IMG/VR virus record: IMGVR_UViG_3300032285_001531
Direction: 5' to 3' (one strand)
Length of the DNA stretch: 64,000 nt
Source of the DNA: a virus
Taxonomy: Duplodnaviria > Caudoviricetes
The notes beneath the pieces are model-generated. The model ran no database searches. It had not been told where the DNA came from and worked only from the letters and a program-made list of their open reading frames with translations. This document shows, one piece after another, positions 2,540 through 56,590 of this stretch (its first letter is position 1; every line of letters starts with the position of its first letter). Both the position numbers and the translations under genes were made by a program.

Positions 2540-3337
2540 ATGGACCATTATACTACATTAGGGGTTAGCAGAAATGCAAGCCCCGACGAAATCAAACAAG
2601 CGTATAGAAAATTAGCAAGTGTACATCACCCAGACAAAGGTGGTGACACTGCTAAGTTTCAAGAAATACAACAAGCCTATGAAACATTAGGTGATCCAAG
2701 TAAAAAAGCAGAATATGATAACCCTCATCAAAACTTTGGTGGATTTGGTGGCGGCTTTGGTGGTGGATTCCCACAAGGCTTTGGATTCAGTGGCGGCATC
2801 AATATTGATGACATTTTTGGTCAGATGTTTGGTCGTCAACAACACACTCATTTCCCAACATATAAGACTATATTGAATGTTACACTAGAACAAGTGTACA
2901 ACGGTGATGAACAAGTATTACAATTTCAAACTCATGTAGGGAATCAAGTAGCTAGAATCAATATCCCTAAAGGTGTTGAGAACGGGCAACAAATGCGCTA
3001 CGATAATCTTATTCCAAATGCAACATTAATCGTTGAGTTTAGAGTTTACCCACATGATAAATTTCAAAGACAAGGGCTAAATTTGCAATCTGAGGTTGGT
3101 ATATCAGTATTAGATTTAATCATAGGTACTACTATTGATTTTGAAACTATTTCAGGTAAGAAGTTTCAAGTAACAGTTAAACCTAAAACACAACCTAATA
3201 CTACACTAAGAATACCTCAACAAGGTATGATTCATGGGCATGTAACAGGAGACCAATTAATATTGTTAAAACCATTTATTCCTGCTACAATCAGTGATGA
3301 AATAATCAGTGCAATTATTCGCAATCAAAACAACTAA
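2540..3337 (+). CDS. dnaJ: DnaJ/CbpA-like co-chaperone (J domain, G/F-rich region, C-terminal domain, no zinc finger)
   Basis: DHYTTLGV...AYRKLASVHHPDKGG (HPD motif), G/F-rich linker, DnaJ_C-like IPKGV and LRIPQQGM. Confidence 0.92.
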   Translation: MDHYTTLGVSRNASPDEIKQAYRKLASVHHPDKGGDTAKFQEIQQAYETLGDPSKKAEYDNPHQNFGGFGGGFGGGFPQGFGFSGGINIDDIFGQMFGRQQHTHFPTYKTILNVTLEQVYNGDEQVLQFQTHVGNQVARINIPKGVENGQQMRYDNLIPNATLIVEFRVYPHDKFQRQGLNLQSEVGISVLDLIIGTTIDFETISGKKFQVTVKPKTQPNTTLRIPQQGMIHGHVTGDQLILLKPFIPATISDEIISAIIRNQNN

Positions 3338-3347
3338 GGATCAATAC

Positions 3348-5621
3348 ATGAATACATCAGTAGAAATAGAATCAATTATTGAACAGGCCATTGCATATGC
3401 AAAGGAACGTAGTCATCAATATTGCACGGTAGAACATTTATTGTTAGCATTAATAAATCATGTTCCATTTAAGAAATGTGTAGAACAATTCGGTGCGGAT
3501 TCTGAAAGTCTATCAAAAGAAGTGTCAAACTACTTAGATGGATTACGAGCTATCATGATGTCAGTGGATCAGGGAGAAGAAATTAACCCACGTAAAACAA
3601 ATAGTTTGGAACGTGTAATTAATCGTAGCGTGACACAAGTATTGTTTACTGGTCGCAAACAAGTTACCACTATTGACTTGTATCTCAGCATCCTAAGTGA
3701 GAATAATAGTCATGCACATTATTTTATGTTAAAATATGGCTTGAATAAGAATGAATTTGTTCCTTTCTGGCAGAAACATTATAAGGGTGCTGAGTTCAGT
3801 GGTAATCTAACAGATAGTCAAGCAGATGAAATTCTAGGTGAATACACTGTTAATCTAACATATATGGCTAAACAAGGTAAACTTGAGCCATTGATTGGTC
3901 GTAGTACTGAATTAAATGATATTATCAATGTACTTGCTAAGCGTTTCAAATCAAACGTATTAATGGTAGGTGACCCAGGTGTAGGTAAAACTGCAATTGC
4001 AGAAGGTCTTGCTACTATGATTGTAGACGGTAACATCCCTGAGTTTCTAGCAGGTCATGAACTGTATTCACTTGAAGTGGGTATGCTACTTGCAGGATCA
4101 AAGTATCGAGGTGACTTTGAAGAAAAGATTAAAAACATACTTGATGCATTGAATACTAAGAAGAAAGCCATCTTATTCATTGATGAGGCACATACAATGA
4201 AGGGTAGTGGTAATACTAACAGTGGTTCAATTGACTTTGCGAGCATGATTAAGCCTGCAATCACTAAAGGTACATTGAAAATTATTGCAAGTACAACTTG
4301 GGAAGATTATTACGAGAGTTTTGAGAAGGATCGTGCATTGATGCGTAGATTCTATCGTGTAGGTGTAGATGAACCAAATCACGATTCAACTATTCGTATC
4401 CTTAAGGGTCTAAGCACACGGTTAAATGACTTCCATAATGTAGTTATTACAGACGATGCTATCACTGCAGCAGTTGATAGTTCAGCACGTTACATTCACG
4501 ACCGTAAGAATCCAGATAAATCAATTGACTTATTGGATGCAGCATGTGCTAAACAACGTGTACTTGAAAACAAAGAAGCACAGATTACTAAAGAGTTAAT
4601 CTATGAACAAGTTGAACGTATGACGGGCGTTCCTGCAGATAAACTCAATGATGACTTTGGAGACCGTGTACAAAATCTTGAACAAAACATTAAAGACAAA
4701 TTATACGGTCAAGACGAAGCAGTTAATAATGTACTTGAACGTGTGTACGTAAGTTTTGCGGGTATAAGTAACGAGAATCGTCCAATGGGTTCATTCTTAT
4801 TCTTAGGACCAACAGGTACAGGTAAAACTGAACTTGCTAAACTACTCAGCAAAAACTTAGATATGCCGTTACTCAAATATGATATGAGTGAATATGGTGA
4901 GAAGCATAGTGTTGCTAAGTTAATTGGTGCTCCTCCTGGTTATGTAGGCTATGGTGAGGGTCAATTGGGCGGTGGTAAACTTATCAATGACTTATCTAAG
5001 AATCCATACTCTATACTATTGTTTGATGAAGTTGAGAAAGCACACCCTGAAGTATTTGACATTTTCTTGCAGTTATTAGATGAGGGTCGTATCACTGGTT
5101 CTAACAGCAAAGAAGTAAACGCTAAGAACTGTTTGATTATCATGACCAGTAACTTAGGTGCAAGCGATAGTGAGAAGAATAATATTGGCTTTGGCACACA
5201 AGAACGTACAGGTGATGACGAACGTGCGCTAAAAGAATTCTTCAAACCAGAGTTTAGAAATCGTATTGACATGATTTGTAAGTTTAACAAACTAGATAAC
5301 CTTGCTATTAAGAAGATTGTTATTAAGTTTACAGATGAACTTAAGAAAAGCATCAAAGCAGCACATGACATTACATTCAATCTAAGTGAACCAGTTGTTG
5401 ACTTCTTAGCTGAGCAAGGATATGACAAGAAGATGGGCGCACGTCCACTATCACGTAAGATTGATGAGTTGATTCGTGTACCGTTATCTAAGAAAATTGT
5501 GTTCGAAGGTGTGAAAAGTGCAAATGTTACCGCACATCTAGTAGATGATAAGATTGAATTTGTAGTATCACAGAAGATTGTTGCTAGAGTAGGGTATAAT
5601 GGAGTAATTACAGTTGAATAA
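3348..5621 (+). CDS. clpA: ClpA/ClpB-family AAA+ ATPase (Clp protease ATP-binding subunit)
   Basis: Clp-N domain (EHLLLAL), two Walker A motifs (GDPGVGKT, GPTGTGKT), Walker B motifs LFIDEAH and LLFDEVEKAH, GAPPGYVG, GARPL. Start moved to ATG 3348, which has an SD. Confidence 0.95.
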   Translation: MNTSVEIESIIEQAIAYAKERSHQYCTVEHLLLALINHVPFKKCVEQFGADSESLSKEVSNYLDGLRAIMMSVDQGEEINPRKTNSLERVINRSVTQVLFTGRKQVTTIDLYLSILSENNSHAHYFMLKYGLNKNEFVPFWQKHYKGAEFSGNLTDSQADEILGEYTVNLTYMAKQGKLEPLIGRSTELNDIINVLAKRFKSNVLMVGDPGVGKTAIAEGLATMIVDGNIPEFLAGHELYSLEVGMLLAGSKYRGDFEEKIKNILDALNTKKKAILFIDEAHTMKGSGNTNSGSIDFASMIKPAITKGTLKIIASTTWEDYYESFEKDRALMRRFYRVGVDEPNHDSTIRILKGLSTRLNDFHNVVITDDAITAAVDSSARYIHDRKNPDKSIDLLDAACAKQRVLENKEAQITKELIYEQVERMTGVPADKLNDDFGDRVQNLEQNIKDKLYGQDEAVNNVLERVYVSFAGISNENRPMGSFLFLGPTGTGKTELAKLLSKNLDMPLLKYDMSEYGEKHSVAKLIGAPPGYVGYGEGQLGGGKLINDLSKNPYSILLFDEVEKAHPEVFDIFLQLLDEGRITGSNSKEVNAKNCLIIMTSNLGASDSEKNNIGFGTQERTGDDERALKEFFKPEFRNRIDMICKFNKLDNLAIKKIVIKFTDELKKSIKAAHDITFNLSEPVVDFLAEQGYDKKMGARPLSRKIDELIRVPLSKKIVFEGVKSANVTAHLVDDKIEFVVSQKIVARVGYNGVITVE

Positions 5622-6270: not shown

Positions 6271-6278
6271 GATAAATA
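6271..6278 (+). promoter_or_regulatory. Late-promoter-like GATAAATA
   Basis: Intergenic; heads the 6300-11576 gene run. Confidence 0.65.
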
Positions 6279-6299: not shown

Positions 6300-6464
6300 A
6301 TGGCAAAAATACACGAGGAAGTCGTTGTAATCAAATTAAGCAAGTTGGTCAAAGAATCTAGTGATAATCCTAGTTTGGCCAGTGCTGAAACAGTAGCCGC
6401 ACTAGAACAAGTTGCCCAAGAATTAGTGGGTGATGGAGTCATTGTTGAGATAGAAAGAGCATAA
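6300..6464 (+). CDS. Small hypothetical protein (54 aa), below the ORF-track cutoff
   Basis: MAKIHEEVVVIKLSKLVKE...IVEIERA; GGAG SD; fills the intergenic gap. Confidence 0.75.
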   Translation: MAKIHEEVVVIKLSKLVKESSDNPSLASAETVAALEQVAQELVGDGVIVEIERA

Positions 6465-6469
6465 TATAA

Positions 6470-6808
6470 ATGTCTCAGGCTACCACTATTATTCTATTGC
6501 CACAAACCACATTCAGTGCAGGTCCTACTGTCCTCGGGGATAAACAACCTGCTGCTGCATACTATTTAGGTAACAGAAATCTACAAACACTTAGTTGGAG
6601 TTTGTCAAACTTTACGGGTGTAATAAGAATCCAAGCTACTTTAGCAGAAACCCCCTTGACAAATGATTGGTTTGAAGTGTATAATATAACTTTATCAACC
6701 ACAACACAGACTAGTTATTACAATCTGCCCGGAAACTTTGTTTGGATTCGTGCAGTTGTATATGACTTTACAGCCGGTGTTATTCAGAATATCAAAGTAA
6801 GTTACTAA
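6470..6808 (+). CDS. Hypothetical beta-rich protein, possibly virion-associated
   Basis: 112-aa ORF with a jelly-roll-like pattern (IQATL...WFEV...FVWIRAVV). Confidence 0.7.
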   Translation: MSQATTIILLPQTTFSAGPTVLGDKQPAAAYYLGNRNLQTLSWSLSNFTGVIRIQATLAETPLTNDWFEVYNITLSTTTQTSYYNLPGNFVWIRAVVYDFTAGVIQNIKVSY

Positions 6809-6809
6809 T

Positions 6810-9800
6810 ATGGGTGGTAATGCTACTATTAGGGGTCGTGAAGCACAAAGCTTGGACTTAAAAGTCACACAGCGCAGCTTTATGGTGCCTAAACTAAATG
6901 CATTACTTCATTCAATCAACACAGCATATCAAAAAGCAACTAAACAAACGCTTTGGGATCCTAAAGTATTAGAGAGTGGTCAATTCTTAAGTGGTAGTTC
7001 ATTACATTTTTTCAATGTTACTGGGATAGATGATAAAACATTTATAACTAAGAAACCTAAAATTGGTGACATTGACACAATGGTCGATAAGACTAAAGAA
7101 GTTCCTCTACAGCAATTCTTAACAACATATATTGACAGACCTTTGGGTCCTGCTGTATTCAGAGGATTTGATAAGGGCAATGAGCAGTATATTTCTTTAT
7201 GGGAATTACAGGATCCTCCTGTAACAATTCAAATTGACTTTGAATTAGTAGATTATCAAAATGGTTCACCTACGGACTGGGCTAAGTTTAGTCATAGTAG
7301 TTCATGGGAAGATTTACAGCATGGAGTTAAGGGCGTATTTCATAAGTTGTTAGTACAATCACTCGCAGCACTAAGCAAGCAAACCTTCTATCAACGTAAA
7401 ATGGTAGGACGTGGTAAAATGCGTAGTGAACAAGATATACCTGTGACTGACAATATGTATTCATTCGCAGTATCTTCTAAAGAAGGTGGAGGATTAAGAG
7501 CAAAGTATGAACCGGTTTTAGGTCCTAACGGTAGACCACTAGCTAAAGATGGAATGCCTGTTATGAGTGCTACTCCTACTACAGGTTATATCAAAGACAT
7601 AGGTCAAATATTCTCAACACTATTAGGTAAACGTTTATCAGCACAAACAGCAAAACAAGTATCAGCTAATTTCTGGTCATTTTCTGGCATTGTTGATGTA
7701 CTAGCAAAGATATTAAACCCAGAAGAAAAAGCGGCAGTAGTAGATTCATTTATAGTAAGAACAATAGGACCTGGCGCACAGGGATTATATAAGAATGATC
7801 CTAATCAGGATGTACAAGAAAAATTAGTTGCGTTGAACTACATTATGAAAAAACTTAATGTATCAAAGCCAAAAGAATTTGATGATATGTTAAAAACTTA
7901 TCGTAGTGCGTACAAGATGACTACTGAAAGTATAGAGTTAACTGAAGCTCCTGACTATAAGCGTAAAAGTATTCCTCATATATACAATCCAGGTACCACA
8001 GTTGAAATCAAAGATAAAGATTTTATTGAAATGTGCAAGGAAATTGCACAGAATGGTGGTACACTAAACAATTCAGTTGTTAACTTAAAAGTTGACGGAG
8101 CTGGTATTCGTTTCGGTAAAGATCAAAGTGGTAAGCCATTCTTTATGACTAGCAAAGTAAATGAACCTAAGTATATTGAGAACTACGGTGATTTTGCAAA
8201 TTACAATATAAGCCAAGGACAACCAGAAGAACGTGTAGCATTTGCTAAGAATTATGATAATGCGTTAAAGATTATATTATCTAGTAATCTTATGAATGCA
8301 ATTCCAGCAGATACAATTATTCAAGCTGAAATGCTATTCAATGACATGGCTCAAAAGTCAAAAGATGGCTATAAGTTTGTAAACATTAACTATGACCCTA
8401 AAAAGTTAGGGAAAGTAATGACACTTGCTCCGTTCACATTCAAACAATATAGCACAGGGGAAGTTTTACCTAATGCTGAAGAAATTCAACAGAATTTATT
8501 GAAGTTAAGCGATAATACAATTAAAGTTATTAGTAATACATTACAACAAAAAGGTATTAATGTCAGTAAAATTATCAACCCTGTCGTAGCTAATGCAGAT
8601 GAATTAAGAAGTGCATTATCAATACGTGGTGATAGTCCGCAAAAACAAAAAGCAAAAGAAGTTATTGCTCATGCTAAACAAACATTAAGCGAAGCTATTA
8701 GCAACAGTCCTATAAAAGGTAAAGACCAGTTAGGTCCTTATAACGAAGGGCTTGTTATTACATTACCTAGTGGCAGAACAGTTAAAGTAACTAGTCAAGC
8801 TATGAAAGATGTAATGGCAACTAGAAAAGCTCCAGCTGGTCCACGTAGTGGTAAAACAGCAATAGTAACTGCTGGTAGCTTTGTTGGTCACAAAGGGCAT
8901 GAACAATTAGTTGAACTAGTATTTGATAAAGCAGCAGCAATAGGAGCTGATCCATATGTATATATCAGCCCAACAGTAGGAGCAGACGATCCTATTCCAC
9001 CACAGATGAAGTTAATGACATGGCAAAAACTTTATCCTAATCATGTTAATAGCTTTCAAGTTTGGCAAGAAGGTGGAACACCAGTCAAAAAGATTGAAAA
9101 AGAATTAGTAACAAGAACTAATCCTCCACCATACGATAGAATTATTGTTATGGTTGGTGATGATAGATACGAAGGTTTTAAACAGTGGGTAGAACACTTG
9201 AGCAAGCGCATGAAGAATCCTCAGTACCCTGGATTTGAGCATGTAGAATTTCATGTTGAGAATACACCACGTGATACTGAATCAGGCGGTACTGGAGTAA
9301 GTTTCACAGACTGTCGTAAAGTATTAGAAAGTCCTAACTTATCCGAAGAACAGAAACTAGCATTTTGGTGCAGAGCATTTGATGTTGATAAGTTAGGTAT
9401 AAGTTGGATTAAACAATTAATGGATACAGCCAAAAAAGGTATGGGGATAAAACAAATGACTAAAAAAGAAAAACTAAAAGAGTTTATACAACGTGCGAGA
9501 CCAATGCTTAAAGAAGCAAGCGTTGAAAAGAAACTAGAGGTTCTTGGTTTCATTAAAGAATCACTGCAAGATGTTTCTGAAGCAGGTAGCCCAGCACAAC
9601 AAGCTGCTATTGCTATCAATATGAAAAAGCATCACAAGAAGCCTAAGCACATAGATGAAAGTCAAGTAACAAAAATTACTGATTATGATACCTGGAGTGA
9701 TACAGTTAAAGAACTAGGTTGTGAGATATATCCTCAAGTAGATAGAAATCTTTTAGTAGCACAGAGGTGGGATGGTGACATAATTGGTAAATTCCACTTA

Positions 9801-10574
9801 GATAAAGATTACGGCTTCATTAATCAGTCTGGTGAACTAGATGAAACTATTAGAAAAGTAGGTAGCCAATATCGTTTACTAAGTAAAAAAGGTAAGAACT
9901 TAGGTACATATCCAAGCAAAGCAGGTGCTGAAAAGCGTGAACGTCAAGTACAATACTTTAAACATGCTAACGAAGGTATGTCGGAAGGCCGTAATAACGA
10001 AGAACTTGCTAACGAAGTATATGCAGAGTTTGAAAGAATCTATCCTAATTTAGCACGTAAGGCACACGAACATACAGTACATGCTGCAATTATAGATGTG
10101 TTAAATTACGGTGATGGTGATATTAGTGCATTAGCACAAGATGTTGCTCGTGCAGTTAAACATGATATTCAACAAGATGTATCCGAAGGATTTAATAGTA
10201 AGCAAGAAGTTATTGCACATTTTGTTAAGCAAGGTAAGAGTGCAGCAAGTGGCGCAGCAGCATGGGAGCGTGGATGGAGAGGCCCTAAATCTAAACAAAA
10301 GGAATTAAAACCACCAGTCAAAAGTTATCATGACGATTTAGATGACAAGCGTTATGGTGAACAAGAAGTATCTGAAACTGAAGAACCATTTAATTTAGAA
10401 AATCGTCATACGATGGATTATGGTATGAGAAAATACATGGTTCATAAACTAGCTAAGACTACAGGCTATGGAGTTAGTGATCTAGAACTAGCTAGTGACG
10501 AAGAACTACGTGACTTGTTTCAGCAGACTTTTCCTGACAAACAACTAGACGAAGATTATTTGGACGAAAAATAA
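6810..10574 (+). CDS. Large multidomain protein: Pol-beta-type nucleotidyltransferase + ligase-like KxDG domain + HxGH cytidyltransferase-like domain + short C-terminal modules
   Basis: GSS...GDIDTMVD near 6993-7090; NLKVDGAGIRFG at 8082-8117; GSFVGHKGHE and IIVMVGDDR; C-terminal modules separated by QDVSE/EGMSE linkers. Confidence 0.75.
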   Translation: MGGNATIRGREAQSLDLKVTQRSFMVPKLNALLHSINTAYQKATKQTLWDPKVLESGQFLSGSSLHFFNVTGIDDKTFITKKPKIGDIDTMVDKTKEVPLQQFLTTYIDRPLGPAVFRGFDKGNEQYISLWELQDPPVTIQIDFELVDYQNGSPTDWAKFSHSSSWEDLQHGVKGVFHKLLVQSLAALSKQTFYQRKMVGRGKMRSEQDIPVTDNMYSFAVSSKEGGGLRAKYEPVLGPNGRPLAKDGMPVMSATPTTGYIKDIGQIFSTLLGKRLSAQTAKQVSANFWSFSGIVDVLAKILNPEEKAAVVDSFIVRTIGPGAQGLYKNDPNQDVQEKLVALNYIMKKLNVSKPKEFDDMLKTYRSAYKMTTESIELTEAPDYKRKSIPHIYNPGTTVEIKDKDFIEMCKEIAQNGGTLNNSVVNLKVDGAGIRFGKDQSGKPFFMTSKVNEPKYIENYGDFANYNISQGQPEERVAFAKNYDNALKIILSSNLMNAIPADTIIQAEMLFNDMAQKSKDGYKFVNINYDPKKLGKVMTLAPFTFKQYSTGEVLPNAEEIQQNLLKLSDNTIKVISNTLQQKGINVSKIINPVVANADELRSALSIRGDSPQKQKAKEVIAHAKQTLSEAISNSPIKGKDQLGPYNEGLVITLPSGRTVKVTSQAMKDVMATRKAPAGPRSGKTAIVTAGSFVGHKGHEQLVELVFDKAAAIGADPYVYISPTVGADDPIPPQMKLMTWQKLYPNHVNSFQVWQEGGTPVKKIEKELVTRTNPPPYDRIIVMVGDDRYEGFKQWVEHLSKRMKNPQYPGFEHVEFHVENTPRDTESGGTGVSFTDCRKVLESPNLSEEQKLAFWCRAFDVDKLGISWIKQLMDTAKKGMGIKQMTKKEKLKEFIQRARPMLKEASVEKKLEVLGFIKESLQDVSEAGSPAQQAAIAINMKKHHKKPKHIDESQVTKITDYDTWSDTVKELGCEIYPQVDRNLLVAQRWDGDIIGKFHLDKDYGFINQSGELDETIRKVGSQYRLLSKKGKNLGTYPSKAGAEKRERQVQYFKHANEGMSEGRNNEELANEVYAEFERIYPNLARKAHEHTVHAAIIDVLNYGDGDISALAQDVARAVKHDIQQDVSEGFNSKQEVIAHFVKQGKSAASGAAAWERGWRGPKSKQKELKPPVKSYHDDLDDKRYGEQEVSETEEPFNLENRHTMDYGMRKYMVHKLAKTTGYGVSDLELASDEELRDLFQQTFPDKQLDEDYLDEK

Positions 10575-26371: not shown

Positions 26372-28486
26372 ATGACTATAGCACAAATAATAGTAGCATC
26401 TGCTTCAGCATCTACTGGCCCACAACACAGTGAAAATGGTGTGTATATATGGGACGGCAGAGACTATAATGGCTCAAATTTTATTTCTAGTAGCAGTACT
26501 GGATATCCATTAACAGTTGTAGGTGGATACACCGGCAATCCAACTGTAGGTAATGGAAGTTGGGGAGGCTCAGTAAACAGCTATTGGATGAATTATGATA
26601 ATAATGGCTCTACTAATAATTACGGATTTCAAACTGCTAACTTAAATCAATATGGTAATTGGAAAATTAATCATTTAAATGATCCAAGTTTTACATTTCA
26701 GATATGGTTTTATCCAACTACATTGGGTACTTCACTAGTAGGTATGAATGAGAATGGTGCAGGTCCATTCCTCAATAACATGCTAGAAATAAACACTGAT
26801 GGGCATTTATATGCTCAGTTATGGGAAAATGGACAATCAGGAAGTCCATTAATAAGTACAACGGCCGCAATACAGAATACCTGGAATCATGCTTTCCTAC
26901 AATATAATGCATCAGGTCAAACTCTTACATTAAGCGTAAACAATGATACTCCGGCGGTATTGACAAGTTTCACACCTGTAGTATTACCTACTAATAATAA
27001 CATGGCATTTTTACTTGGACAAAATACTGGTAATAAAATGACTACTAATGGTGATTTGTCATTTAGAGGACGCATAGCATATGTAAAGGTATCAAATACT
27101 TTTGTTAGTTCCGATTTCATTGATCAACGTAGTTGGTTCTACAACGCATTCACTCCACCTGTATATGGTAATGGATCAGTAGGTGGTAGTATGTACTTTA
27201 ACGGTACTAGTTCTTATCTTCAAGTTCCTATTACAAGTACCGGATTACGATTTGCTCCAGGAACATCAGATTACACTATTGAGTGGTGGCAATTTATGAA
27301 TGCTGCAGGTAGCTATCCATATGTGTTCAGCATATCTAATCCAGATACAGGCGCAATGCAGTTGTCTGCATTTATACAAAGTGGTAATTTATATATTAGC
27401 GACACAGATCATACAAATGTTTCTTTTGGTACTATTCCTGTTACAACTCAATGGACACATGTTGCAATTGTTAGAAAAAATAATTACATGAGTGTTTATG
27501 TAAACGGTATATCAATCAATGATCCTGCAATATATAACTGGCCAACTAATATCGCTAATCTTGGTCCAAGCGGAGCTAAATTTACAATTGGTGCACAAGC
27601 AGATCAGGGTGGAGTAATGAGAAGTGGTACTTATTTTTCAGGACTTATAACTAACTTTAATTTTATTAATGGACTAGCAAAATACACATCCGGTTTTGTT
27701 CCTAGTACACTACCATTCACAGTTGAAGCTGGTGTTGTAACTAAGATGTTGTTGTTAGCTACTACTGAAGCAAATGTAATTTATGACACAGCAGCATCAC
27801 ATAACGTATTAAGTAATAATAGTGTATTATGGAGTAATGCAAGTCCTTATGTTGTGCCATATCTATGGTTGGATGCAGGAAATAATACTAGTTGGACAGG
27901 CGACGGTACATGGCATGATTTAGGATACGGTGGGCATGATGCTACATTCCCTAACAGCGTGACGTATAGTGCAAGCAACGGTGGTATTTTACAATTTGCA
28001 AGTGCAAGCAACCAATATGCAGAATTGCCAGATTTAGGTACAATGACTAGGTTTACTATTAATATTTGGACTAAGTTAACTTCTGCTCCACCAGGTACAT
28101 TTCCGTGTTTCTTCACTGAAAAATTTTCTAATGGTGTCATAAATTACGTGCTAGGATTCCCTACAAATCCTGCAGAAATAGCAGGTGGTTTCTTTAATGG
28201 AGGATGGCAGACTGCAGGAGCAACACCGCCAATAACTGGTCAGTGGTTTAACTTTACTGTTACATATGACGGTAGTGTTATTAGATTCTATGCGAGTGGT
28301 GGTTTAAATTCATATACAAACTTCAGTGGGACACCAGCAGGTAATGGAACTGGTTCTTATATTGGTCATAGATGGGACCAGCTGGAAACAATTGACGGAG
28401 CAATACCGGTAGTACAACTTTATAACTATGCACTAAGTGCAGCAGAAGTTTCAGCATTATACAACAAGTTTAGTCCAAGATATTAA
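26372..28486 (+). CDS. LamG/concanavalin-A-like lectin repeat protein (virion surface)
   Basis: Three LamG-like units (FTFQIWFYP, YTIEWW, FTINIW; WTHVAIVR; YNYALSAAEVSALYN). Confidence 0.85.
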   Translation: MTIAQIIVASASASTGPQHSENGVYIWDGRDYNGSNFISSSSTGYPLTVVGGYTGNPTVGNGSWGGSVNSYWMNYDNNGSTNNYGFQTANLNQYGNWKINHLNDPSFTFQIWFYPTTLGTSLVGMNENGAGPFLNNMLEINTDGHLYAQLWENGQSGSPLISTTAAIQNTWNHAFLQYNASGQTLTLSVNNDTPAVLTSFTPVVLPTNNNMAFLLGQNTGNKMTTNGDLSFRGRIAYVKVSNTFVSSDFIDQRSWFYNAFTPPVYGNGSVGGSMYFNGTSSYLQVPITSTGLRFAPGTSDYTIEWWQFMNAAGSYPYVFSISNPDTGAMQLSAFIQSGNLYISDTDHTNVSFGTIPVTTQWTHVAIVRKNNYMSVYVNGISINDPAIYNWPTNIANLGPSGAKFTIGAQADQGGVMRSGTYFSGLITNFNFINGLAKYTSGFVPSTLPFTVEAGVVTKMLLLATTEANVIYDTAASHNVLSNNSVLWSNASPYVVPYLWLDAGNNTSWTGDGTWHDLGYGGHDATFPNSVTYSASNGGILQFASASNQYAELPDLGTMTRFTINIWTKLTSAPPGTFPCFFTEKFSNGVINYVLGFPTNPAEIAGGFFNGGWQTAGATPPITGQWFNFTVTYDGSVIRFYASGGLNSYTNFSGTPAGNGTGSYIGHRWDQLETIDGAIPVVQLYNYALSAAEVSALYNKFSPRY

Positions 28487-28487
28487 T

Positions 28488-29255
28488 ATGCCAAAAACAC
28501 TAGTTACAGATCAATCAAAATATAATTGGAAGCGTGACGCAGTAGATAATAGAGATCATCTATTTGCATTATCTGCTGCATCTTTGCCAGCAAGTATTGA
28601 TTTACGTGCAGGCTGCAGTCCTATTGAAGATCAAGGTCAACTAGGTAGTTGTACTGGTAATGCAATAGCAGGCCTTATTGAATACATAGACAGAAAAAAT
28701 CATAAGAATTTAGATGTGAGTCGTTTGTTCATCTATTATCAAGAACGATTAATGGAAGGTACTGTTTGGTATGATAGCGGTGCTTATATACGTGACGGCA
28801 TCAAAGCAGTATATCAATACGGTGCTCCATTAGAAAGTCTATGGCCATATGATGCAAGAAAACTAACAGTTCGCCCTAGTTATAATGCATATACTGATGC
28901 AGCAAAACGTAAAGTTAAAGCATACCAACGTTGTGCAAACTTTGCAGCAGTTAAAACAGCACTGGCAGCAGGTAATCCAGTTGTAGTCGGCTTTGATGTA
29001 TATGAAAGTTTTGAATCAGATGCAGTAGCAGCAACTGGAGTTATGCCTTATCCAAACGTAAACACTGAACAACTATTAGGTGGACACGCAGTAACAATCG
29101 TGGGTTATAATGATCAGCATAGTTGGTTTATTGTACGTAATAGTTGGGGTACAAGTTGGGGAGATCATGGATATTTCTATATGCCATATCAAGTCATACA
29201 AGACACTAACATGAGTTCAGATTTTTGGACAATAACTTCTGTAACGAACCCTTAA
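28488..29255 (+). CDS. Papain-family (C1A) cysteine peptidase
   Basis: DQGQLGSCTGNA (catalytic Cys), GGHAVTIVGY (His), RNSWGTSWG (Asn). Start moved to ATG 28488. Confidence 0.93.
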   Translation: MPKTLVTDQSKYNWKRDAVDNRDHLFALSAASLPASIDLRAGCSPIEDQGQLGSCTGNAIAGLIEYIDRKNHKNLDVSRLFIYYQERLMEGTVWYDSGAYIRDGIKAVYQYGAPLESLWPYDARKLTVRPSYNAYTDAAKRKVKAYQRCANFAAVKTALAAGNPVVVGFDVYESFESDAVAATGVMPYPNVNTEQLLGGHAVTIVGYNDQHSWFIVRNSWGTSWGDHGYFYMPYQVIQDTNMSSDFWTITSVTNP

Positions 29256-32029: not shown

Positions 32030-33109
32030 ATGAAAATAAACTCATTACTAGAATCTACAACATCAGGATCAGTAGCATCAGTCTCTACTCCTGTTGGAAA
32101 AATGCAAAAACGTGGAGGGTCTATGTTTAAGGGAAAAACTACTAACAAACCCTTTTACGAAGAAAAGAAGGACTGCGGCTGCCCTGCTGAATGCACATGC
32201 AGAAAAGTAGATGAAGCATTTGATACTACTAATCCAAAAGAATATCTCATTACTGTTCATCATCAAACACAAGATGGAGAGAGTGGTAAAGCTGAATATA
32301 AAATTACTAAGGCAAATGATGCCCGTCATGCTAAAAATATAGCAATGCTTAGGCATAGAAATGCGTTAGAAGTTAAAGGTATTAAATCCAAATCAATGCA
32401 TTGTAGTAGTCAAGATGTTAAAAATGTAGACGAAGGTGCAATGCCCCAATCAGTAATCAGAGCCAAAGAGAATATTCGTATGGCCAGCGATGAAGAAAAC
32501 AAGAAACGTTTTGCTGGTAAAACTAAAGAAGAATTAGCAAGCATGGCACGTAGACATGGTTATAAAGATAAAAATCCTTATGCTAAATTTCATGACGGTA
32601 AAACAGGAATCAATGAAGGTTCAATTAGTAACGCATTAGTTGCAGTAGAGGAAGCTAGACTAAGCGAAGAAGATTTAATTTTAATGCCAGGACAAGGTGT
32701 TAGATTCAAAAAAGAATTAATGCCAAAGAAAACAGACCATGAAATTGAAATGGCACGTGGTCAATTATATCAATCAGCAAAAAATGCAAAAGACATCTGT
32801 GGCATGCTAAAAGGTATCAGCGAAATACAAGGCATTGACGCATGGGTACAATCAAAAATTACCACAGCAGCAGACTACCTAGAAACAGTACGTGCATATT
32901 TAGAATCTAAGTATGAAATGCAACATGAAATTGATGAGGCTACCCCACGTGAAAAATTTAACAAGGGTTTGAAAAAAGCAGGATACGATCCACATAAAGG
33001 TGCAGATCGTTTGTTGGCATTACTTGCTAAACAAGCAGAAGAACGCAAGAAGTTTGAAAAAGAACTGCCTTTTGTTTATGGTGATAAAGACAAGGATGAA
33101 CAGAAATGA
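32030..33109 (+). CDS. Modular hypothetical protein, probable head-internal protein
   Basis: N-terminal MKINSLLE; short modules delimited by xxE motifs; helical DHEIEMARGQL...WVQSKIT.AADYL module. Confidence 0.7.
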   Translation: MKINSLLESTTSGSVASVSTPVGKMQKRGGSMFKGKTTNKPFYEEKKDCGCPAECTCRKVDEAFDTTNPKEYLITVHHQTQDGESGKAEYKITKANDARHAKNIAMLRHRNALEVKGIKSKSMHCSSQDVKNVDEGAMPQSVIRAKENIRMASDEENKKRFAGKTKEELASMARRHGYKDKNPYAKFHDGKTGINEGSISNALVAVEEARLSEEDLILMPGQGVRFKKELMPKKTDHEIEMARGQLYQSAKNAKDICGMLKGISEIQGIDAWVQSKITTAADYLETVRAYLESKYEMQHEIDEATPREKFNKGLKKAGYDPHKGADRLLALLAKQAEERKKFEKELPFVYGDKDKDEQK

Positions 33110-34371
33110 GAGCATTTGAATTTTTAATTGAGAACGAAGAAGCTGCATCAAATTTACCAGGTGCAGTTAATGGAGTTAAGATTATGACACCGCAACAATT
33201 TGTTGGTGACGAAGAAGAAGTGGATGAAGCTACTAAACTACCTGCACCACAAAAACAATTTGGTGGGCAAGAGTTTCAGGACTACATGCAACGTATTGTA
33301 GGTACGCCTGATATTGATAAAAAAACTGGTCAACCTAAAGTAGATAAAAAGGGCAAAGAAAAGTATGTGTCTGGTAAATTAAAAACAGACAAGTTTAAAA
33401 TGCCATATATCCATCGTAGCAGTGTTGTTGAATACTATGATGAAAAAGGTAAGAAATTCAATGAAGATGCAGTTATTAATGCATTGAAAGTGCGCAAAGA
33501 TTCATTGTTGAAACAAAATGAAAAAATGAAGCACAGTAATGGTGCATTAGAGCAGTTCTTCAATGTAGGCTTTGCAGCACTAACAGGTATCGCAGTAGAT
33601 GAAAGCACTGATAAGTTAATCATTGTTAATACTTGTCCAGGTGCCGGTGCATGTAAAGTAGATTGCTTTGCTATGAAGGGCGGTAAGATTCAATTTAAAG
33701 GTGGTTGGTTAAGTGATGGTCGTATTCTAACAGAATTACTAAATGACCCGCAGGGTTTCAGTAGTAGACTATCAAATGAGATTGCTAAAGAAGAAGCATT
33801 AGGTAAAAAAGGTGGCTATAGTGTTACAGTGCGTTGGCATGACGCAGGTGATTTCTTTAGTCCTGAATATTTGGACCTAGCATTAGATATTGCAAAGCGT
33901 TTCCCTAATGTTAAATTCTATGCTTATACTAAAATGGCTGGTGCAGCACTAGCAAATAAGCCAAGTAACTTTATCATCAACTGGTCAGAAGGCGCACATA
34001 CTTCACAAGAGAAACAAATCAAATCACAAGATCCACAGTTGACGCAGACTAAGAACAGTCGTATTGTTCCTGAGAAACTATTTTGGGACTTACTAAAGAA
34101 AGACGAGAAAGGCAACCTAGACAAAGAGGGTGCTAATGCTAAAGGTGAAGGTGGTCGTTGGGTAACAAGCGGACCAGAAGCAACACAAGAACTAAAACAA
34201 CGTTTAGCACAAGCATATGGTCTAAGTGCAAACAGTATTCTGTCATATGATGAGTACATCTCTAAAGGCAAAAACTCTCCTATGAAGTGGAACGTTATAG
34301 TTGCACCTGGTGAGGGTGATCTTAGCGCAAATGATCCAAACGTATTAAGTACATTATTATTGAGGCACTAA
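33106..34371 (+). CDS. GP88-like (radical-SAM-like) phage protein
   Basis: TCPGAGACKVDCFA (CX5CX3C), VRWHDAGDFFS, FYAYTK; N-terminal MRAFEFLIE. Confidence 0.75.
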   Translation: MRAFEFLIENEEAASNLPGAVNGVKIMTPQQFVGDEEEVDEATKLPAPQKQFGGQEFQDYMQRIVGTPDIDKKTGQPKVDKKGKEKYVSGKLKTDKFKMPYIHRSSVVEYYDEKGKKFNEDAVINALKVRKDSLLKQNEKMKHSNGALEQFFNVGFAALTGIAVDESTDKLIIVNTCPGAGACKVDCFAMKGGKIQFKGGWLSDGRILTELLNDPQGFSSRLSNEIAKEEALGKKGGYSVTVRWHDAGDFFSPEYLDLALDIAKRFPNVKFYAYTKMAGAALANKPSNFIINWSEGAHTSQEKQIKSQDPQLTQTKNSRIVPEKLFWDLLKKDEKGNLDKEGANAKGEGGRWVTSGPEATQELKQRLAQAYGLSANSILSYDEYISKGKNSPMKWNVIVAPGEGDLSANDPNVLSTLLLRH

Positions 34372-36101: not shown

Positions 36102-36986
36102 ATGAGAATTACCGATTTTAAAATACACGATACCGAAAAACTAGACCATATACTAGTAAAACTCTGCCAAATGGTTATTAATGGCCAAAAGCAGGATAGT
36201 GACTATTTTGGTATGGTTGCTGCTTGTGTCCTAGACACCCATAATGAAGAAGTCTGTGCCCTAAACTATGTAGTAAAAGACGGCAAACATGTACATGCAG
36301 AACGAGCAGCAATAGACAAATATCACAAACAATATGGTGATATTCCAGCTGGTAGCATTATCATTACAACTTGCAGTCCATGCAGTGAAATGATGACTGA
36401 GCGTTACGGAGATTCTTGTACTAACTTAATAGAAGAAGTTGGTGTACATAAAGTATATTGCGGATACGAAGATCCTACACAAGATAGCAGTGAAAATTAT
36501 GTTCATAAAACATTCCATGTAAAACAAACCCGCAATGAAAAGATTATAGAACTATGCAAATCGTTTGCGGACACTTTCTTAGAAAAAGAAAAGATTGCTG
36601 AAACTAAACATATTATGGAAGAAATTAGAAAAGTCAATGCAGATGAGTTAACTCCAAAGTTTGTTGCATGGGCTAGTAAAATACTAAAATTAGAAACTAC
36701 ACCAGAAATAGAATTAAGCTACGATACAGAAGAAGCGCAAGACGGACATCATACTGGTCGTCATACTGAAGGTGATAACAAAGTTTGGGTATATGCTAAG
36801 AACAGAAACTTAGTTGACATATATCGTACAATATTCCATGAATTAGTTCACGTAAGACAAGGTGAATTAAACATGATTAAGCCCGGTGATAGTTATCCCG
36901 GCAGTCCAATAGAACAACAAGCTGATGTACTTGCAGGTAAGTATATCAAAGTATTTGGAGCAGAACATCCGGAGATTTTTCAATGA
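36102..36986 (+). CDS. Zn-dependent deaminase domain fused to a zincin (HExxH) domain
   Basis: HAERAAI, TCSPC...C and VYCGYEDP; C-terminal IFHELVHVRQ...E.QAD. Confidence 0.8.
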   Translation: MRITDFKIHDTEKLDHILVKLCQMVINGQKQDSDYFGMVAACVLDTHNEEVCALNYVVKDGKHVHAERAAIDKYHKQYGDIPAGSIIITTCSPCSEMMTERYGDSCTNLIEEVGVHKVYCGYEDPTQDSSENYVHKTFHVKQTRNEKIIELCKSFADTFLEKEKIAETKHIMEEIRKVNADELTPKFVAWASKILKLETTPEIELSYDTEEAQDGHHTGRHTEGDNKVWVYAKNRNLVDIYRTIFHELVHVRQGELNMIKPGDSYPGSPIEQQADVLAGKYIKVFGAEHPEIFQ

Positions 36987-39061: not shown

Positions 39062-39969
39062 GAGCAATAGAGTTTTTAGTAGAGTATGATCGTGCTAAGA
39101 CGATGATGAACTTAGGTAATATCCTACATCAAAAAATGTTGAAGGATCGTACTGTACAACGTATATTCGGTGATGACCCTGTAGAGATAATCGATCCGGC
39201 TGTGATAATTGAATTTGCATTAGATAGATTTCAAGAGGCAGATCCTAGTCCTAACAAACAATATGTTCAATGGATAGCAAGAACCTATGCTAAAGATCCT
39301 AACTTCAAATTTGAAGATGTATTAAGTACTGTTCATCCATACTTAGAAAAGTTTTATAAACTAATCAAACGTAAAAAGATTCCTAGTCCACAAAACGATA
39401 TAAACAAGTATTCTGATTTTAAAGTTTTTATGGGAGTACTGGATCAATTTCCTGATCCAGACGGTGAAGCAATACAAAAAGATAAAGGTCATGCTTTCAC
39501 ACTATACGAAGATGATAAGTGGAGAGTTATAGTACCACAAGATGAACCAGCAGCATGTTATTATGGTCAAGGCTCACGTTGGTGTACTAGTGCAACCAAA
39601 GCTAGAAACATGTTTAGCTATTATAATAATATATCTCCATTGCTTATTGCGATTCCAAAAGATCCATTTCATCCAGGTGAGAAGTATCAATTACACTTTG
39701 GTATATCAATTGATGATTACCCAATGAAAAGTGATAGTGATATAGAAGATTATATTAATCAAAATGATGACATGTCTGATTCAGGACTTGATGAAGTACT
39801 TGAGTATGGTCAAATAATGGATGAGCATGATGATCCAATGTCATTCTATGATATGACACGTAGATTGGGTGGTAGTTGGGATGGAATTATTGACGCATAC
39901 ATTGCTAAATTCCCAGATCGTAAATGGCAATTACTTATGAATTTAGAACAAGTTGAAGGTCGTGATTAA
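39058..39969 (+). CDS. PcfJ-like (WCT-motif) protein
   Basis: AACYYGQGSRWCTSA motif with a downstream KYQLHF; N-terminal MRAIEFLVE. Confidence 0.65.
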   Translation: MRAIEFLVEYDRAKTMMNLGNILHQKMLKDRTVQRIFGDDPVEIIDPAVIIEFALDRFQEADPSPNKQYVQWIARTYAKDPNFKFEDVLSTVHPYLEKFYKLIKRKKIPSPQNDINKYSDFKVFMGVLDQFPDPDGEAIQKDKGHAFTLYEDDKWRVIVPQDEPAACYYGQGSRWCTSATKARNMFSYYNNISPLLIAIPKDPFHPGEKYQLHFGISIDDYPMKSDSDIEDYINQNDDMSDSGLDEVLEYGQIMDEHDDPMSFYDMTRRLGGSWDGIIDAYIAKFPDRKWQLLMNLEQVEGRD

Positions 39970-52943: not shown

Positions 52944-53161
52944 TGACTGCTATATTTACATATCTTTTTATAGGTGGAGTGTTAGGATTTCTAATAGGAT
53001 TGAACAAGCACCAAACACCTACTGGTCTTATTAACTATAATATTTTAAAAAACGAACGAGATGAATCTGAGAGAAAACTTTTGTATTACAAAAAGGTAAT
53101 CAAAGACCTAGTAGAAGATAATCGTAAGCTAGTAAAAGAATTAGAAGAACATAATAAATGA
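52943..53161 (+). CDS. Small membrane-anchored coiled-coil protein
   Basis: N-terminal TM helix; coupled to both neighbours. Confidence 0.7.
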   Translation: MTAIFTYLFIGGVLGFLIGLNKHQTPTGLINYNILKNERDESERKLLYYKKVIKDLVEDNRKLVKELEEHNK

Positions 53162-54141: not shown

Positions 54142-54142
54142 A

Positions 54143-54149
54143 ATAAATA
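54143..54149 (+). promoter_or_regulatory. Late-promoter-like ATAAATA upstream of folE
   Basis: Intergenic motif followed by a ~55-nt leader. Confidence 0.45.
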
Positions 54150-54210
54150 GTTATGTAACACAAAGGTTACAAATAGTCAACAAAAAACCATCACAACGGA
54201 GGGTTATCAA

Positions 54211-54894: not shown

Positions 54895-54952
54895 GAGAAT
54901 TTGTTGCAGGATCATCAGGAAATAGATGTTGTAAAAACTAGAGGATTAGAAG

Positions 54953-55426: not shown

Positions 55427-55430
55427 AAAT

Positions 55431-55476
55431 AGCGGTCTAGGCAATCACCCCGCTCTACAAATTCTGCTGCCTATGA
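55431..55476 (+). ncRNA. preQ1-I-like pseudoknot/riboswitch candidate in the queD leader
   Basis: P1 AGCGG/CCGCT, loop TCTAGGCAATCACC, A-rich linker, P2 TAGGCA/TGCCTA. Confidence 0.55.
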
Positions 55477-55494
55477 TAATGTAGGAAAATAGTT

Positions 55495-56579: not shown

Positions 56580-56590
56580 TAGGAGAATAT

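What the first reader, a model, noticed from the sequence alone, without database searches (positions are those of the whole stretch)
6810..9450. Three different nucleotidyl-transfer chemistries fused in one late protein
Seen: a Pol-beta-type GSS...DID domain, a KxDG (KVDG) ligase-like adenylation domain and an HxGH (HKGH) cytidyltransferase-like domain in one 1254-aa chain, followed by cleavable-looking modules. Known: Pol-beta NTases, KxDG ligases and HxGH transferases are unrelated folds. Inference: an RNA end-repair/ligation machine or cofactor-making enzyme, possibly countering host tRNA-cleaving or NAD-depleting defences.
Basis: partly seen in the sequence, partly recalled or inferred. 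Interest (0 to 1): 0.7.

Follow-up and report, generated by a model that had tools for sequence, protein, structure and literature searches.

The report
Capsid-loaded triple nucleotidyltransferase polyprotein of jumbo phage
A giant phage encodes one long protein that joins a polymerase-like enzyme, a ligase and a cofactor-type adenylyltransferase. It carries cut marks typical of proteins loaded into the phage head, so it is probably a ready-made nucleic-acid repair kit injected with the DNA.

Summary
ORF 6810-10574 (+) encodes 1254 aa with three nucleotidyl-transfer folds, each with its catalytic motifs conserved across homologs.
- Residues 1-379: Pol-beta superfamily domain (G62-S63, D87/D89, D143), closest in topology to family X polymerases and terminal transferases.
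- Residues 380-676: covalent ligase domain (K427-x-D-G, E507, E646-G, K659), closest to RNA ligases, with no OB domain.
- Residues 679-880: HxGH adenylyltransferase (H694/H697, R836), closest to NMNAT by structure and to FAD synthetase by sequence.

The first two domains match no Pfam family.

New here:
- The 920-aa core recurs in at least 455 metagenomic phage proteins.
- (L/I)-x-E precedes the invariant GGN start in 148 of 159 leaders, and the site recurs at the domain 1/2 boundary and after the core. This is the T4 prohead-protease motif.
- Leaders resemble T4 capsid-targeting sequences.
- The C-terminus is a shuffled cassette array. In relatives it carries HD_4, kinase, deaminase or GNAT domains, and it ends in DYLxEK.

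Best reading (0.45): a late, capsid-packaged, protease-processed, injected polyprotein for nucleic-acid (probably tRNA/RNA) end repair. Packaging, cleavage and substrates are inferred. The scan's own first-stage notes had flagged this same stretch once before. New variant of a known kind; interest 0.65.

The parts
6271..6278 (+). GATAAATA, a late-promoter-like motif upstream of the 6470/6810 gene pair
   Evidence: ATAAATA is strongly depleted in the window (13 found, 40.9 +/- 5.7 expected). Nine of its 11 + strand copies lie just upstream of genes, 7 of them as GATAAATA. The likeness to the T4 late promoter TATAAATA is from my own knowledge.
6470..6808 (+). Upstream 112-aa ORF (phrog_13657, unknown function), 1 nt from the start of the main ORF and probably co-transcribed
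6810..10574 (+). Whole ORF, 1254 aa (P0001), including the stop codon
   Evidence: found on a 349,679-bp metagenomic contig
6810..7946 (+). Domain 1, residues 1-379: Pol-beta superfamily nucleotidyltransferase, PolX-like. Invariant start G2-G3-N4; G62-S63, D87-x-D89, D143/E145
   Evidence: Model pLDDT 96.6; fold hits; invariant columns; no Pfam family in any of 94 members; phrog_19290
7938..7949 (+). L377-T-E379|A380: predicted prohead-protease site in the disordered linker between domains 1 and 2
   Evidence: P3 is L/I/V in 114 and P1 is E in 116 of 121 homologs, while the neighbouring linker columns vary. It is one of only 4 [LIVM]xE sites held in at least 60% of the 920-aa core. pLDDT is low at the start of model 2.
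7947..8837 (+). Domain 2, residues 380-676: covalent (lysine-adenylating) ligase nucleotidyltransferase domain. Motif I K427-V-D-G, motif III E507, motif IV E646-G-L-V, motif V K659. No OB domain.
   Evidence: No Pfam ligase family hit in any of 55 members. Split homolog in Xanthomonas phage X1, WEM34319, E 6e-16.
8844..9449 (+). Domain 3, residues 679-880: HxGH (HIGH superfamily) adenylyltransferase. G689-S-F-V-G-H694-K-G-H697, V782-G-D-D-R, S831-F-T-D-C-R836
   Evidence: phrog_3041; profile hit to RibF at E 8e-5; 47 of 55 relatives hit Pfam FAD_syn; NMNAT/NadD/PPAT Z 11.7-12.4
9450..9581 (+). Conserved helical linker, residues 881-924, ending in V922-S-E924|A (predicted cleavage site)
   Evidence: In most homologs the linker ends in hydrophobic-x-E, and variable sequence follows
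9582..10376 (+). Four small C-terminal cassettes: 925-1011, 1012-1058, 1059-1126, 1127-1189. Each ends in hydrophobic-x-E (L-D-E, M-S-E, V-S-E, V-S-E).
   Evidence: In homologs the cassettes are present, absent or reordered, with breakpoints at these sites. No Pfam hit; phrog_3684 covers 1005-1055.
10377..10571 (+). Last cassette, residues 1190-1254, with the family-wide C-terminal tail D-Y-L-D-E-K (nt 10554-10571)
   Evidence: A [YF][LVIM]xE[KR] tail at the extreme C-terminus in 81 of 155 long family members. It occurs only once in the six-frame translation of the window.

Best explanation
The ORF encodes a polyprotein of a T4-superfamily jumbo phage of about 350 kb.

Proposed course of events:
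1. It is transcribed with late genes.
2. It is loaded into the prohead.
3. The T4-type prohead protease cuts it after (L/I/V)-x-E.
4. The pieces are injected with the DNA.

Predicted products:
- a PolX-like nucleotidyltransferase whose mature N-terminus is the invariant G-G-N (residues 2-379);
- an Rnl-like ATP-dependent ligase fused to an NMNAT/FMNAT-like adenylyltransferase (380-924);
- five small C-terminal peptides.

In the cell the enzymes would act before any phage gene is expressed, as a ready-made end-repair kit, most likely for RNA/tRNA damaged by host defences. The nucleotidyltransferase would restore missing 3' nucleotides and the ligase would seal 5'-P/3'-OH ends through a K427-AMP intermediate. 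The HxGH domain would adenylylate a phosphorylated small molecule or end (NAD- or FAD-type chemistry).

Shown: the folds, the conserved catalytic motifs, the family, the conserved cut-site pattern, the cassette shuffling and the late-type promoter motif. Inferred: cleavage, packaging, injection, and every substrate.
For: - Three folds with invariant catalytic residues.
- Family: at least 455 proteins share the 920-aa core, and the N-domain alone spans 589 clusters at 50% identity, many of them standalone proteins of about 350 aa.
- Cut-site pattern: in 159 distinct N-terminal leaders the residue before GGN is E in 157, and P3 is L or I in 148. Where there is no leader, the protein starts M-GGN at the same position (58 cases). 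This is the T4 gp21 motif L/I-X-E. The 10-residue capsid-targeting sequence, and Alt being processed at both ends, are described in PMC9026906.
- The leaders resemble the T4 capsid-targeting sequence (my own recollection of its sequence). One standalone member lies in a T4-like contig next to UvsW, UvsY and RNR genes.
- The same motif is conserved in the disordered linker between domains 1 and 2 and at the end of the post-core linker helix.
- The C-terminal cassettes are reshuffled among homologs. In relatives they carry HD_4 (11 of 71), Zeta/AAA_33 kinase, deaminase, GNAT, amidoligase and ParB_N domains. That is the pattern of injected polyvalent proteins (PMC5512222).
- Other ORFs in this window carry leaders of the same type, for example the first nine residues of ORFs 33106, 39058 and 39969, so this phage appears to use the same targeting system.
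- GATAAATA lies upstream of the operon and of virion genes.
- For RNA rather than DNA: RNA ligases outrank DNA ligases, and there is no OB domain. Pairing of a Pol-beta nucleotidyltransferase with an RNA ligase is known for RlaP (PMC7824862; bioRxiv 10.64898/2025.12.29.696909). HD_4-type hydrolases can repair pyrophosphorylated tRNA CCA ends (bioRxiv 10.1101/2021.04.30.441581).
- Gene order N - x - L - H in Xanthomonas phage X1 mirrors the domain order here.
Against: - There is no proteomic or biochemical evidence. Cleavage and packaging rest on sequence patterns alone.
- P0001 and its closest relatives lack the N-terminal leader, so their route into the capsid (possibly the DYLxEK tail) is unknown.
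- No prohead protease gene lies in the window, and the rest of the genome is not held.
- The core has no end-healing enzyme (kinase or phosphoesterase), which most RNA repair pathways need.
- The N-domain covers more of the family X DNA polymerases than of the RNA-specific terminal transferases. PolX-ligase fusions in giant viruses serve DNA repair. A DNA substrate therefore stays open.
- The N-domain fold matches are only middling: Z 7-8, Foldseek E about 2e-3.
- The HxGH domain has no obvious role in end repair.
Confidence: 0.45

Rival explanations
1. DNA repair of the incoming genome. The PolX-like domain fills gaps and the ligase seals nicks or breaks in the injected phage DNA (virion DNA interruptions, or restriction/CRISPR damage). 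This would parallel ASFV PolX plus ligase, the giant-virus PolX-ligase fusions, or bacterial LigD.
For: - Foldseek ranks Pol beta and lambda first for the N-domain.
- VIA aligns 165-181 residues with Pol beta, TdT, Pol mu/lambda and ASFV PolX, against about 100 for the RNA terminal transferases.
- The Atlas search finds giant-virus clusters that fuse PolX with ATP- or NAD-dependent ligase domains.
- DNA ligase IV and archaeal DNA ligases also match the ligase domain with probability 1.0.
Against: - There is no OB domain, which every known DNA ligase has (my own knowledge; the model shows none).
- RNA ligases score higher, Z 9.0-10.6 against 7.7-8.3.
- The model shows no 8-kDa or helix-hairpin-helix fingers.
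- No member matches the Pfam DNA_pol_B_palm or thumb models.
Confidence: 0.2
2. A true polyvalent effector with unlinked activities. Each domain would counter a different defence or hijack the host on its own. For example, the HxGH domain would rebuild NAD or FAD against NADase defences. The Pol-beta domain would nucleotidylylate or tail host RNA or proteins, and the ligase-like domain would serve a third role.
For: - The family's C-terminal arrays mix unrelated enzymes, as described for polyvalent proteins (PMC5512222).
- The N-domain occurs alone in many T4-like phages, so it can work without the other two.
- The HxGH domain is closest to NMNAT and FAD synthetase, which are cofactor enzymes.
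- Other phage clusters pair a PolX-like fold with a CTP_transf_like domain and no ligase.
Against: The order N-L-H is fixed across at least 455 proteins, and the same order survives as separate neighbouring genes in phage X1. That argues for a functional link. The predicted cuts leave L and H fused.
Confidence: 0.15
3. Not packaged at all. This would be a cytoplasmic multi-enzyme made late, and the conserved hydrophobic-x-E positions would reflect folding or linker constraints rather than protease sites.
For: - P0001 has no N-terminal leader.
- No protease gene or virion proteomics is available.
- Short motifs such as L-x-E are common by chance.
Against: - E at P1 in 157 of 159 leaders and L/I at P3 in 148, against background frequencies of 6% E and 28% LIVMF.
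- Leaders vary in length (5-195 aa) yet always end at the same GGN.
- The leaderless forms start exactly there.
- The conserved site lies inside an otherwise variable, low-confidence linker.
- The cassettes are bounded by the same motif.
Confidence: 0.12

Closest known systems
T4 internal head proteins and Alt (capsid-targeting sequence plus gp21 processing)
   Same: A short N-terminal leader ends in L/I-x-E and is removed by the prohead protease. Alt is an injected enzyme trimmed at both ends (PMC9026906). The family's leaders and its C-terminal L-x-E-K tail fit this logic.
   Different: The cargo here is a 140-kDa three-enzyme chain plus cassettes, with predicted internal cuts. P0001 itself has no leader. 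There is no sequence similarity to Alt or IPI-III.
Polyvalent proteins of phages and conjugative elements (Iyer et al. 2017, PMC5512222)
   Same: Many disparate enzymatic domains in one injected polypeptide, with rapid reshuffling of modules. Domain types such as ParB_N, Zeta-like kinase, GNAT, HD and Pol-beta nucleotidyltransferase are shared.
   Different: That survey reports no RNA/DNA ligase or HIGH nucleotidyltransferase core. Here a fixed 920-aa tri-enzyme core carries the variable array. Separation seems to rely on the prohead protease rather than a built-in metallopeptidase.
RlaP (PF10127) with RNA ligases in RNA repair, including T4 NrdC.11, Rnl1/Rnl2 and Pnkp
   Same: A Pol-beta nucleotidyltransferase cooperates with an RNA ligase. 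RlaP adds 1-2 nucleotides to damaged RNA 3' ends before ligation (PMC7824862; bioRxiv 10.64898/2025.12.29.696909). Both have a nucleotidyltransferase domain followed by a helical domain.
   Different: No family member matches PF10127. The domains are fused, not just neighbours. They are probably virion-delivered, and an HxGH domain is added.
Family X polymerase plus ligase repair pairs (ASFV PolX, giant-virus PolX-ligase fusions)
   Same: PolX-like palm and thumb topology (165-181 residues aligned, Z about 7) joined to a lysine-adenylating ligase.
   Different: No OB domain, no 8-kDa or HhH domains, and no sequence-level match to the PolX Pfam models. The ligase is nearer to RNA ligases.
NMN/NaMN adenylyltransferases and the FMN adenylyltransferase module of RibF
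   Same: HxGH and ISST-like motifs and a Rossmann-like fold; Z 12.4 to archaeal NMNAT; Pfam FAD_syn hits in 47 of 55 relatives.
   Different: The first motif is one residue shorter (G-S-F-V-G-H-K-G-H). P0001 itself falls below the Pfam threshold. The domain is fused behind a ligase, and its substrate is unknown.

Membership tests
Pol-beta superfamily nucleotidyltransferases | hG[GS] motif, [DE]x[DE] on the next strand, a third carboxylate on a later strand, and the alpha/beta nucleotidyltransferase fold | tested here: met
   G62-S63, D87-x-D89 and D143 are invariant in 94 homologs and lie on the predicted helix start and strands. All top fold hits belong to this superfamily. The GS-to-DxD spacing is long (about 24 residues, with two short helices).
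Family X DNA polymerases | Palm plus thumb, with fingers/8-kDa HhH domains, and a match to the DNA_pol_B_palm/thumb sequence models | tested here: inconclusive
   Palm plus thumb align over 165-181 residues at Z 6.5-7.2, rmsd 3.6-4.7, which ties with the terminal uridylyltransferases. No Pfam PolX model is hit in 94 members. No HhH or 8-kDa region appears in the model.
RlaP (PF10127) | Match to the PF10127 profile | tested here: not met
   0 of 94 N-domain members match at E up to 0.1.
Covalent nucleotidyltransferases (ATP-dependent ligases and capping enzymes) | Motif I KxDG with the catalytic lysine, motifs III, IV and V, and the adenylyltransferase fold | tested here: met
   K427, D429, G430, E507, E646, G647 and K659 are invariant in 55 homologs. 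Foldseek gives probability 1.0 to Rnl1, Rnl2, Rnl3, REL1 and LigIV. VIA gives Z 8-10.6.
DNA ligases | OB-fold domain following the nucleotidyltransferase domain (motif VI) | tested here: not met
   In the model, motif V (strand 285-289) is followed by one helix and then directly by the HxGH domain. No OB-containing alignment extends beyond residue 300 or so.
Named RNA ligase families (Rnl1, Rnl2, Rnl3, Rnl5) | The family-specific flanking domain and a match to the sequence profile | tested here: inconclusive
   The best structural matches are RNA ligases, but the matches cover only their nucleotidyltransferase domains. No Pfam RNA_ligase model is hit in 55 members, and no PDB sequence hit was found.
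HIGH (HxGH) nucleotidyltransferase superfamily | GxFxxxHxGH-type motif, a C-terminal ISSTxxR-type motif, and a Rossmann-like fold | tested here: met
   H694, H697, R821 and R836 are invariant. The profile alignment to RibF covers both motifs. Z is 10-12.4 to NMNAT, NadD, PPAT and FAD synthetase. phrog_3041 'cytidyltransferase' matches.
FAD synthetase (Pfam FAD_syn, PF06574) | Score above the Pfam gathering threshold | tested here: inconclusive
   47 of 55 relatives match at E up to 0.05, best 4e-6. P0001 itself gives no hit.
T4-type capsid-targeted, gp21-processed head proteins | N-terminal leader of about 10-20 aa ending in L/I-x-E; cleavage by the prohead protease; presence in virions | tested here: inconclusive
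   The family-wide leader pattern is met. P0001 has no leader but keeps the internal and C-terminal sites. Cleavage and virion presence cannot be tested with these tools.
Polyvalent proteins | Several unrelated catalytic domains in one phage polypeptide, a variable architecture among close relatives, and a virion or late context | tested here: met
   domain census and shuffling; virion genes and late-type motif nearby

The most novel reading that the evidence does not exclude
A phage would deliver pre-made RNA/tRNA repair enzymes inside its capsid. The prohead protease would double as the activating step, because it creates the invariant free G-G-N amino terminus of the PolX-like enzyme. Repair would then start before any phage gene is translated. 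That would defeat defences that shut down translation at the outset (anticodon nucleases, tRNA CCA pyrophosphorylation) and that an early-expressed repair system such as T4 Rnl1/Pnkp cannot outrun.
Probability: 0.25. Interest if true: 0.85.

Novelty: new variant of a known kind. Interest (0 to 1): 0.65.

Why it matters
Injected phage proteins decide the first minutes of infection, yet few enzymatic ones are known (T4 Alt, N4 virion RNA polymerase, P1 Dar). This would be a large and so far unannotated family, seen so far in fused form only in metagenomic, uncultured phages. It would add polymerase-like, ligase and adenylyltransferase chemistry to that cargo.

Two of the three domains are absent from Pfam. 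They are candidates for new enzyme families, and possibly for new RNA or DNA end-joining tools.

The cut-site pattern gives a testable rule for finding capsid-loaded polyproteins in T4-superfamily jumbo phages. The variable C-terminal cassettes are a likely source of small anti-defence proteins.

Tried and rejected
- Pfam on P0001 gave nothing significant.
- Sequence search of the PDB with the whole protein gave nothing usable. Profiles of domains 1 and 2 also gave nothing.
- megablast of 6 kb against 50,697 phage genomes found no match. No isolated phage in that collection has the fused form. tblastn found only split or single-domain relatives.
- RlaP membership was tested and not met.
- The search for short standalone ligase-domain proteins returned only 9 short proteins, most on contigs under 4 kb. 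The one whose contig I read, P0294, is cut by a contig end.
- The ESM Atlas feature search of the C-terminal 374 residues gave no usable hit.
- The whole genome is not held, so I could not look for the prohead protease, Pnkp or NAD salvage genes.
- The T4 late promoter TATAAATA has 0 copies. The related GATAAATA was found instead.
- A LicD-like phosphotransferase paired with a cytidylyltransferase was considered for domains 1 and 3. Only one weak BFVD row (rank 43) points that way, and no PDB hit does.
- Literature searches for a packaged RNA ligase or for this architecture found no description. The search for DUF6267 found no paper, and the virion-proteomics search was uninformative.
- No complex-prediction job was sent, because the report does not claim that the pieces bind each other.
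Full report
**What is there**

The window is phage DNA: almost all long ORFs lie on the + strand and GC is 30-38%. Its family B DNA polymerase is closest to those of the jumbo myoviruses Phosso and Atu_ph07, at 47-49% identity. The exact protein occurs on a 349,679-bp metagenomic contig. ORF 6810-10574 encodes 1254 aa (P0001). It starts M-G-G-N, with an in-frame stop 4 codons upstream and the preceding 112-aa ORF ending 1 nt before it.

**Domain 1 (residues 1-379)**

- It matches no Pfam family, neither for P0001 nor for any of 94 diverse homologs, and this includes RlaP PF10127. It matches only phrog_19290, of unknown function.
- Invariant columns across 94 sequences at 28-83% identity include G2, G3, G62, S63, D87, D89, Q141, D143, D168 and K179. 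This is the Pol-beta GS / DxD / D signature.
- The AlphaFold2 model has pLDDT 96.6.
- Foldseek puts Pol beta and lambda first, though weakly (E 2e-3, probability 1.0).
- The Foldseek-independent search gives Z 7-8, with terminal uridylyltransferases, Trf4 and OAS2 (about 100 residues aligned) tied with Pol beta, TdT, Pol mu, Pol lambda and ASFV PolX (165-181 residues over model positions 6-295).
- The fold and the catalytic triad are therefore secure. A closer assignment within the superfamily is not.

**Domain 2 (residues 380-676)**

- It has no Pfam or PDB sequence match.
- K427, D429, G430, E507, E646, G647 and K659 are invariant.
- The model (pLDDT 93.1 for residues 373-880) matches RNA ligases best: Naegleria Rnl Z 10.6, T4 Rnl2 9.5, REL1 9.3 and T4 Rnl1 9.0. 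DNA ligases score 7.7-8.3.
- No OB domain follows motif V. The HxGH domain follows directly.

**Domain 3 (residues 679-880)**

- It matches phrog_3041 'cytidyltransferase'.
- Its profile hits RibF at E 8e-5 across both signature motifs.
- 47 of 55 relatives hit Pfam FAD_syn.
- The model matches NMNAT, NadM, NadD and PPAT at Z 11.7-12.4.

**A conserved family**

- At least 455 proteins of 690-2195 aa share the first 920 residues or so at 48-94% identity. Conservation collapses after residue 920 and returns in the last six residues.
- The N-domain alone defines 589 clusters at 50% identity, and many are standalone proteins of about 350 aa.
- Among isolated phages only split or partial forms were found. 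Campylobacter CP220-group and Vibrio phiKT1024-group phages have the N-domain alone. Xanthomonas phages X1 and BUDD have neighbouring genes in the order N, unknown, L, H. In X1 the L gene is a clear homolog (E 6e-16). The H gene is annotated as an adenylyl/cytidylyltransferase but is not detectably similar by BLAST.

**Signs of capsid targeting and proteolytic processing**

- In 159 distinct N-terminal leaders (5 to about 195 residues) the residue before the invariant GGN is E in 157. The residue three before it is L in 107, I in 41, V in 7 and M in 3. A further 58 proteins start M-GGN at the same position.
- This is the T4 gp21 specificity L/I-X-E. [quoted passage not shown] Many leaders resemble the T4 targeting sequence as I recall it. 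One standalone member sits in a T4-like contig beside UvsW, UvsY and ribonucleotide reductase genes.
- The same motif is conserved at the boundary of domains 1 and 2: L/I/V at position 377 in 114 homologs and E at 379 in 116, out of 121, inside an otherwise variable and low-confidence linker. Only four [LIVM]xE positions are conserved in at least 60% of the whole 920-residue core. The other three lie inside predicted strands or helices.
- The helical linker after the core ends in hydrophobic-x-E in most homologs, just before the variable sequence starts.
- In P0001 five further sites bound small cassettes: V-S-E 924, L-D-E 1011, M-S-E 1058, V-S-E 1126 and V-S-E 1189. Relatives keep, lose or reorder these cassettes, with breakpoints at those sites.
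- The tail D-Y-L-x-E-K ends 81 of 155 long members.
- Other window ORFs (33106, 39058, 39969, and perhaps 32030 and 36983) begin with leaders of the same kind.
- P0001 and its nearest relatives have no leader, so how they would enter the head is open.

**Late expression**

TATAAATA is absent from the window (0 copies against 11.8 expected). ATAAATA is depleted (13 against 40.9 +/- 5.7). Nine of its 11 + strand copies lie just upstream of genes, seven of them as GATAAATA. One of these is at 6271-6278, ahead of the 6470/6810 pair, and others precede virion genes. Reading this as a late promoter rests on analogy with T4.

**Variable C-terminus**

In 71 relatives the region after the core carries HD_4 (11), DUF6934 (4), GNAT (3) and TAT-signal-like stretches (3). 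Single cases carry Zeta/AAA_33 kinase, dCMP deaminase, amidoligase, a Pol-beta nucleotidyltransferase, ParB_N, GP88 and DUF6321. This is the behaviour described for injected polyvalent proteins (PMC5512222). That survey does not report a ligase or HIGH-nucleotidyltransferase core. P0001's own cassettes have no Pfam match.

**Function**

The best-supported reading is a packaged, protease-processed, injected enzyme set for nucleic-acid end repair. I favour RNA for four reasons.
- The ligase domain is nearer to RNA ligases and has no OB domain.
- Cooperation between a Pol-beta nucleotidyltransferase and an RNA ligase is established for RlaP (PMC7824862; bioRxiv 10.64898/2025.12.29.696909).
- The commonest add-on in relatives, HD_4, belongs to a hydrolase class that can restore pyrophosphorylated tRNA ends (bioRxiv 10.1101/2021.04.30.441581).
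- Delivery of ready-made enzyme makes sense against defences that block translation.

Against this, the core has no end-healing enzyme, and the N-domain covers family X DNA polymerases more fully than RNA transferases. Giant-virus PolX-ligase fusions point to DNA repair. The HxGH domain fits no repair scheme, and its chemistry looks like NAD or FAD synthesis. Other phage clusters pair a PolX-like fold with a CTP_transf_like domain without a ligase, so domains 1 and 3 may have a link of their own.

**Unexplained**

G-G-N is invariant at the predicted mature N-terminus, whether it is produced by cleavage or by removal of the start methionine. This suggests that the free amino end matters for the enzyme.

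**Novelty**

No paper in the held library describes this architecture. An earlier first-stage note of this scan on the same stretch read it the same way. I file the finding as a new variant of known kinds: capsid-targeted internal proteins, polyvalent proteins and nucleotidyltransferase-ligase repair modules. Two of its domain families have no Pfam model.

Noticed in passing
window 33106-34371, 39058-39969, 39969-42689 (also 32030-33109, 36983-39061): These ORFs begin with 8-10-residue leaders ending in hydrophobic-x-E, much like the leaders of the family studied here and like the T4 capsid-targeting sequence. They may be further capsid-loaded, injected proteins. Their only family matches are PHROG families of unknown function (32030-33109 matched none).
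   Followed up: partly
window, whole; copies at 740, 796, 2498, 6272, 11638, 18928, 32000, 36090, 54143: ATAAATA is about 3-fold depleted (13 against 41 expected) and TATAAATA is absent (0 against 12). The surviving + strand copies sit just upstream of genes, mostly as GATAAATA. This looks like a late-promoter variant that has been purged elsewhere.
   Followed up: partly
window 2540-3337 and 3309-5621: The phage encodes a J-domain protein (HPD motif) directly followed by a 770-aa ClpB/ClpA-like double AAA+ protein (phrog_4871). The same pair, in the same order, occurs in a related 137-kb contig (L003).
   Followed up: partly
window 28437-29255: A papain-family cysteine peptidase (Pfam Peptidase_C1, E 1.6e-21) lies among tail-fibre-like genes. 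This is unusual for a phage.
   Followed up: no
window 53158-57660: A cluster with a nucleotide-sugar epimerase, a second small HxGH cytidylyltransferase-like ORF (54953-55426, motif F-D-L-L-H-A-G-H) and a QueE-like radical SAM gene. It may serve DNA or glycan modification. Xanthomonas phage X1, which has the split N/L/H genes, also carries QueE-like and queuine tRNA-ribosyltransferase genes.
   Followed up: no
Atlas clusters, rows 4, 6, 8: Other phage protein clusters (500-536 aa) combine a PolX-like fold resembling domain 1 with Pfam CTP_transf_like or DUF6267. The pairing of a Pol-beta-type fold with an HxGH domain therefore recurs outside this family.
   Followed up: no
window 6305-6460: A start codon at about 6305, some 25 nt downstream of the GATAAATA motif, suggests a small uncalled ORF (about 50 aa) between the 5614-6270 gene and the 6470 gene.
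   Followed up: no
L003 6821-9898: In the related contig a 1025-aa DUF5661 protein lies directly upstream of the family member. It may be another large virion or injected protein.
   Followed up: no
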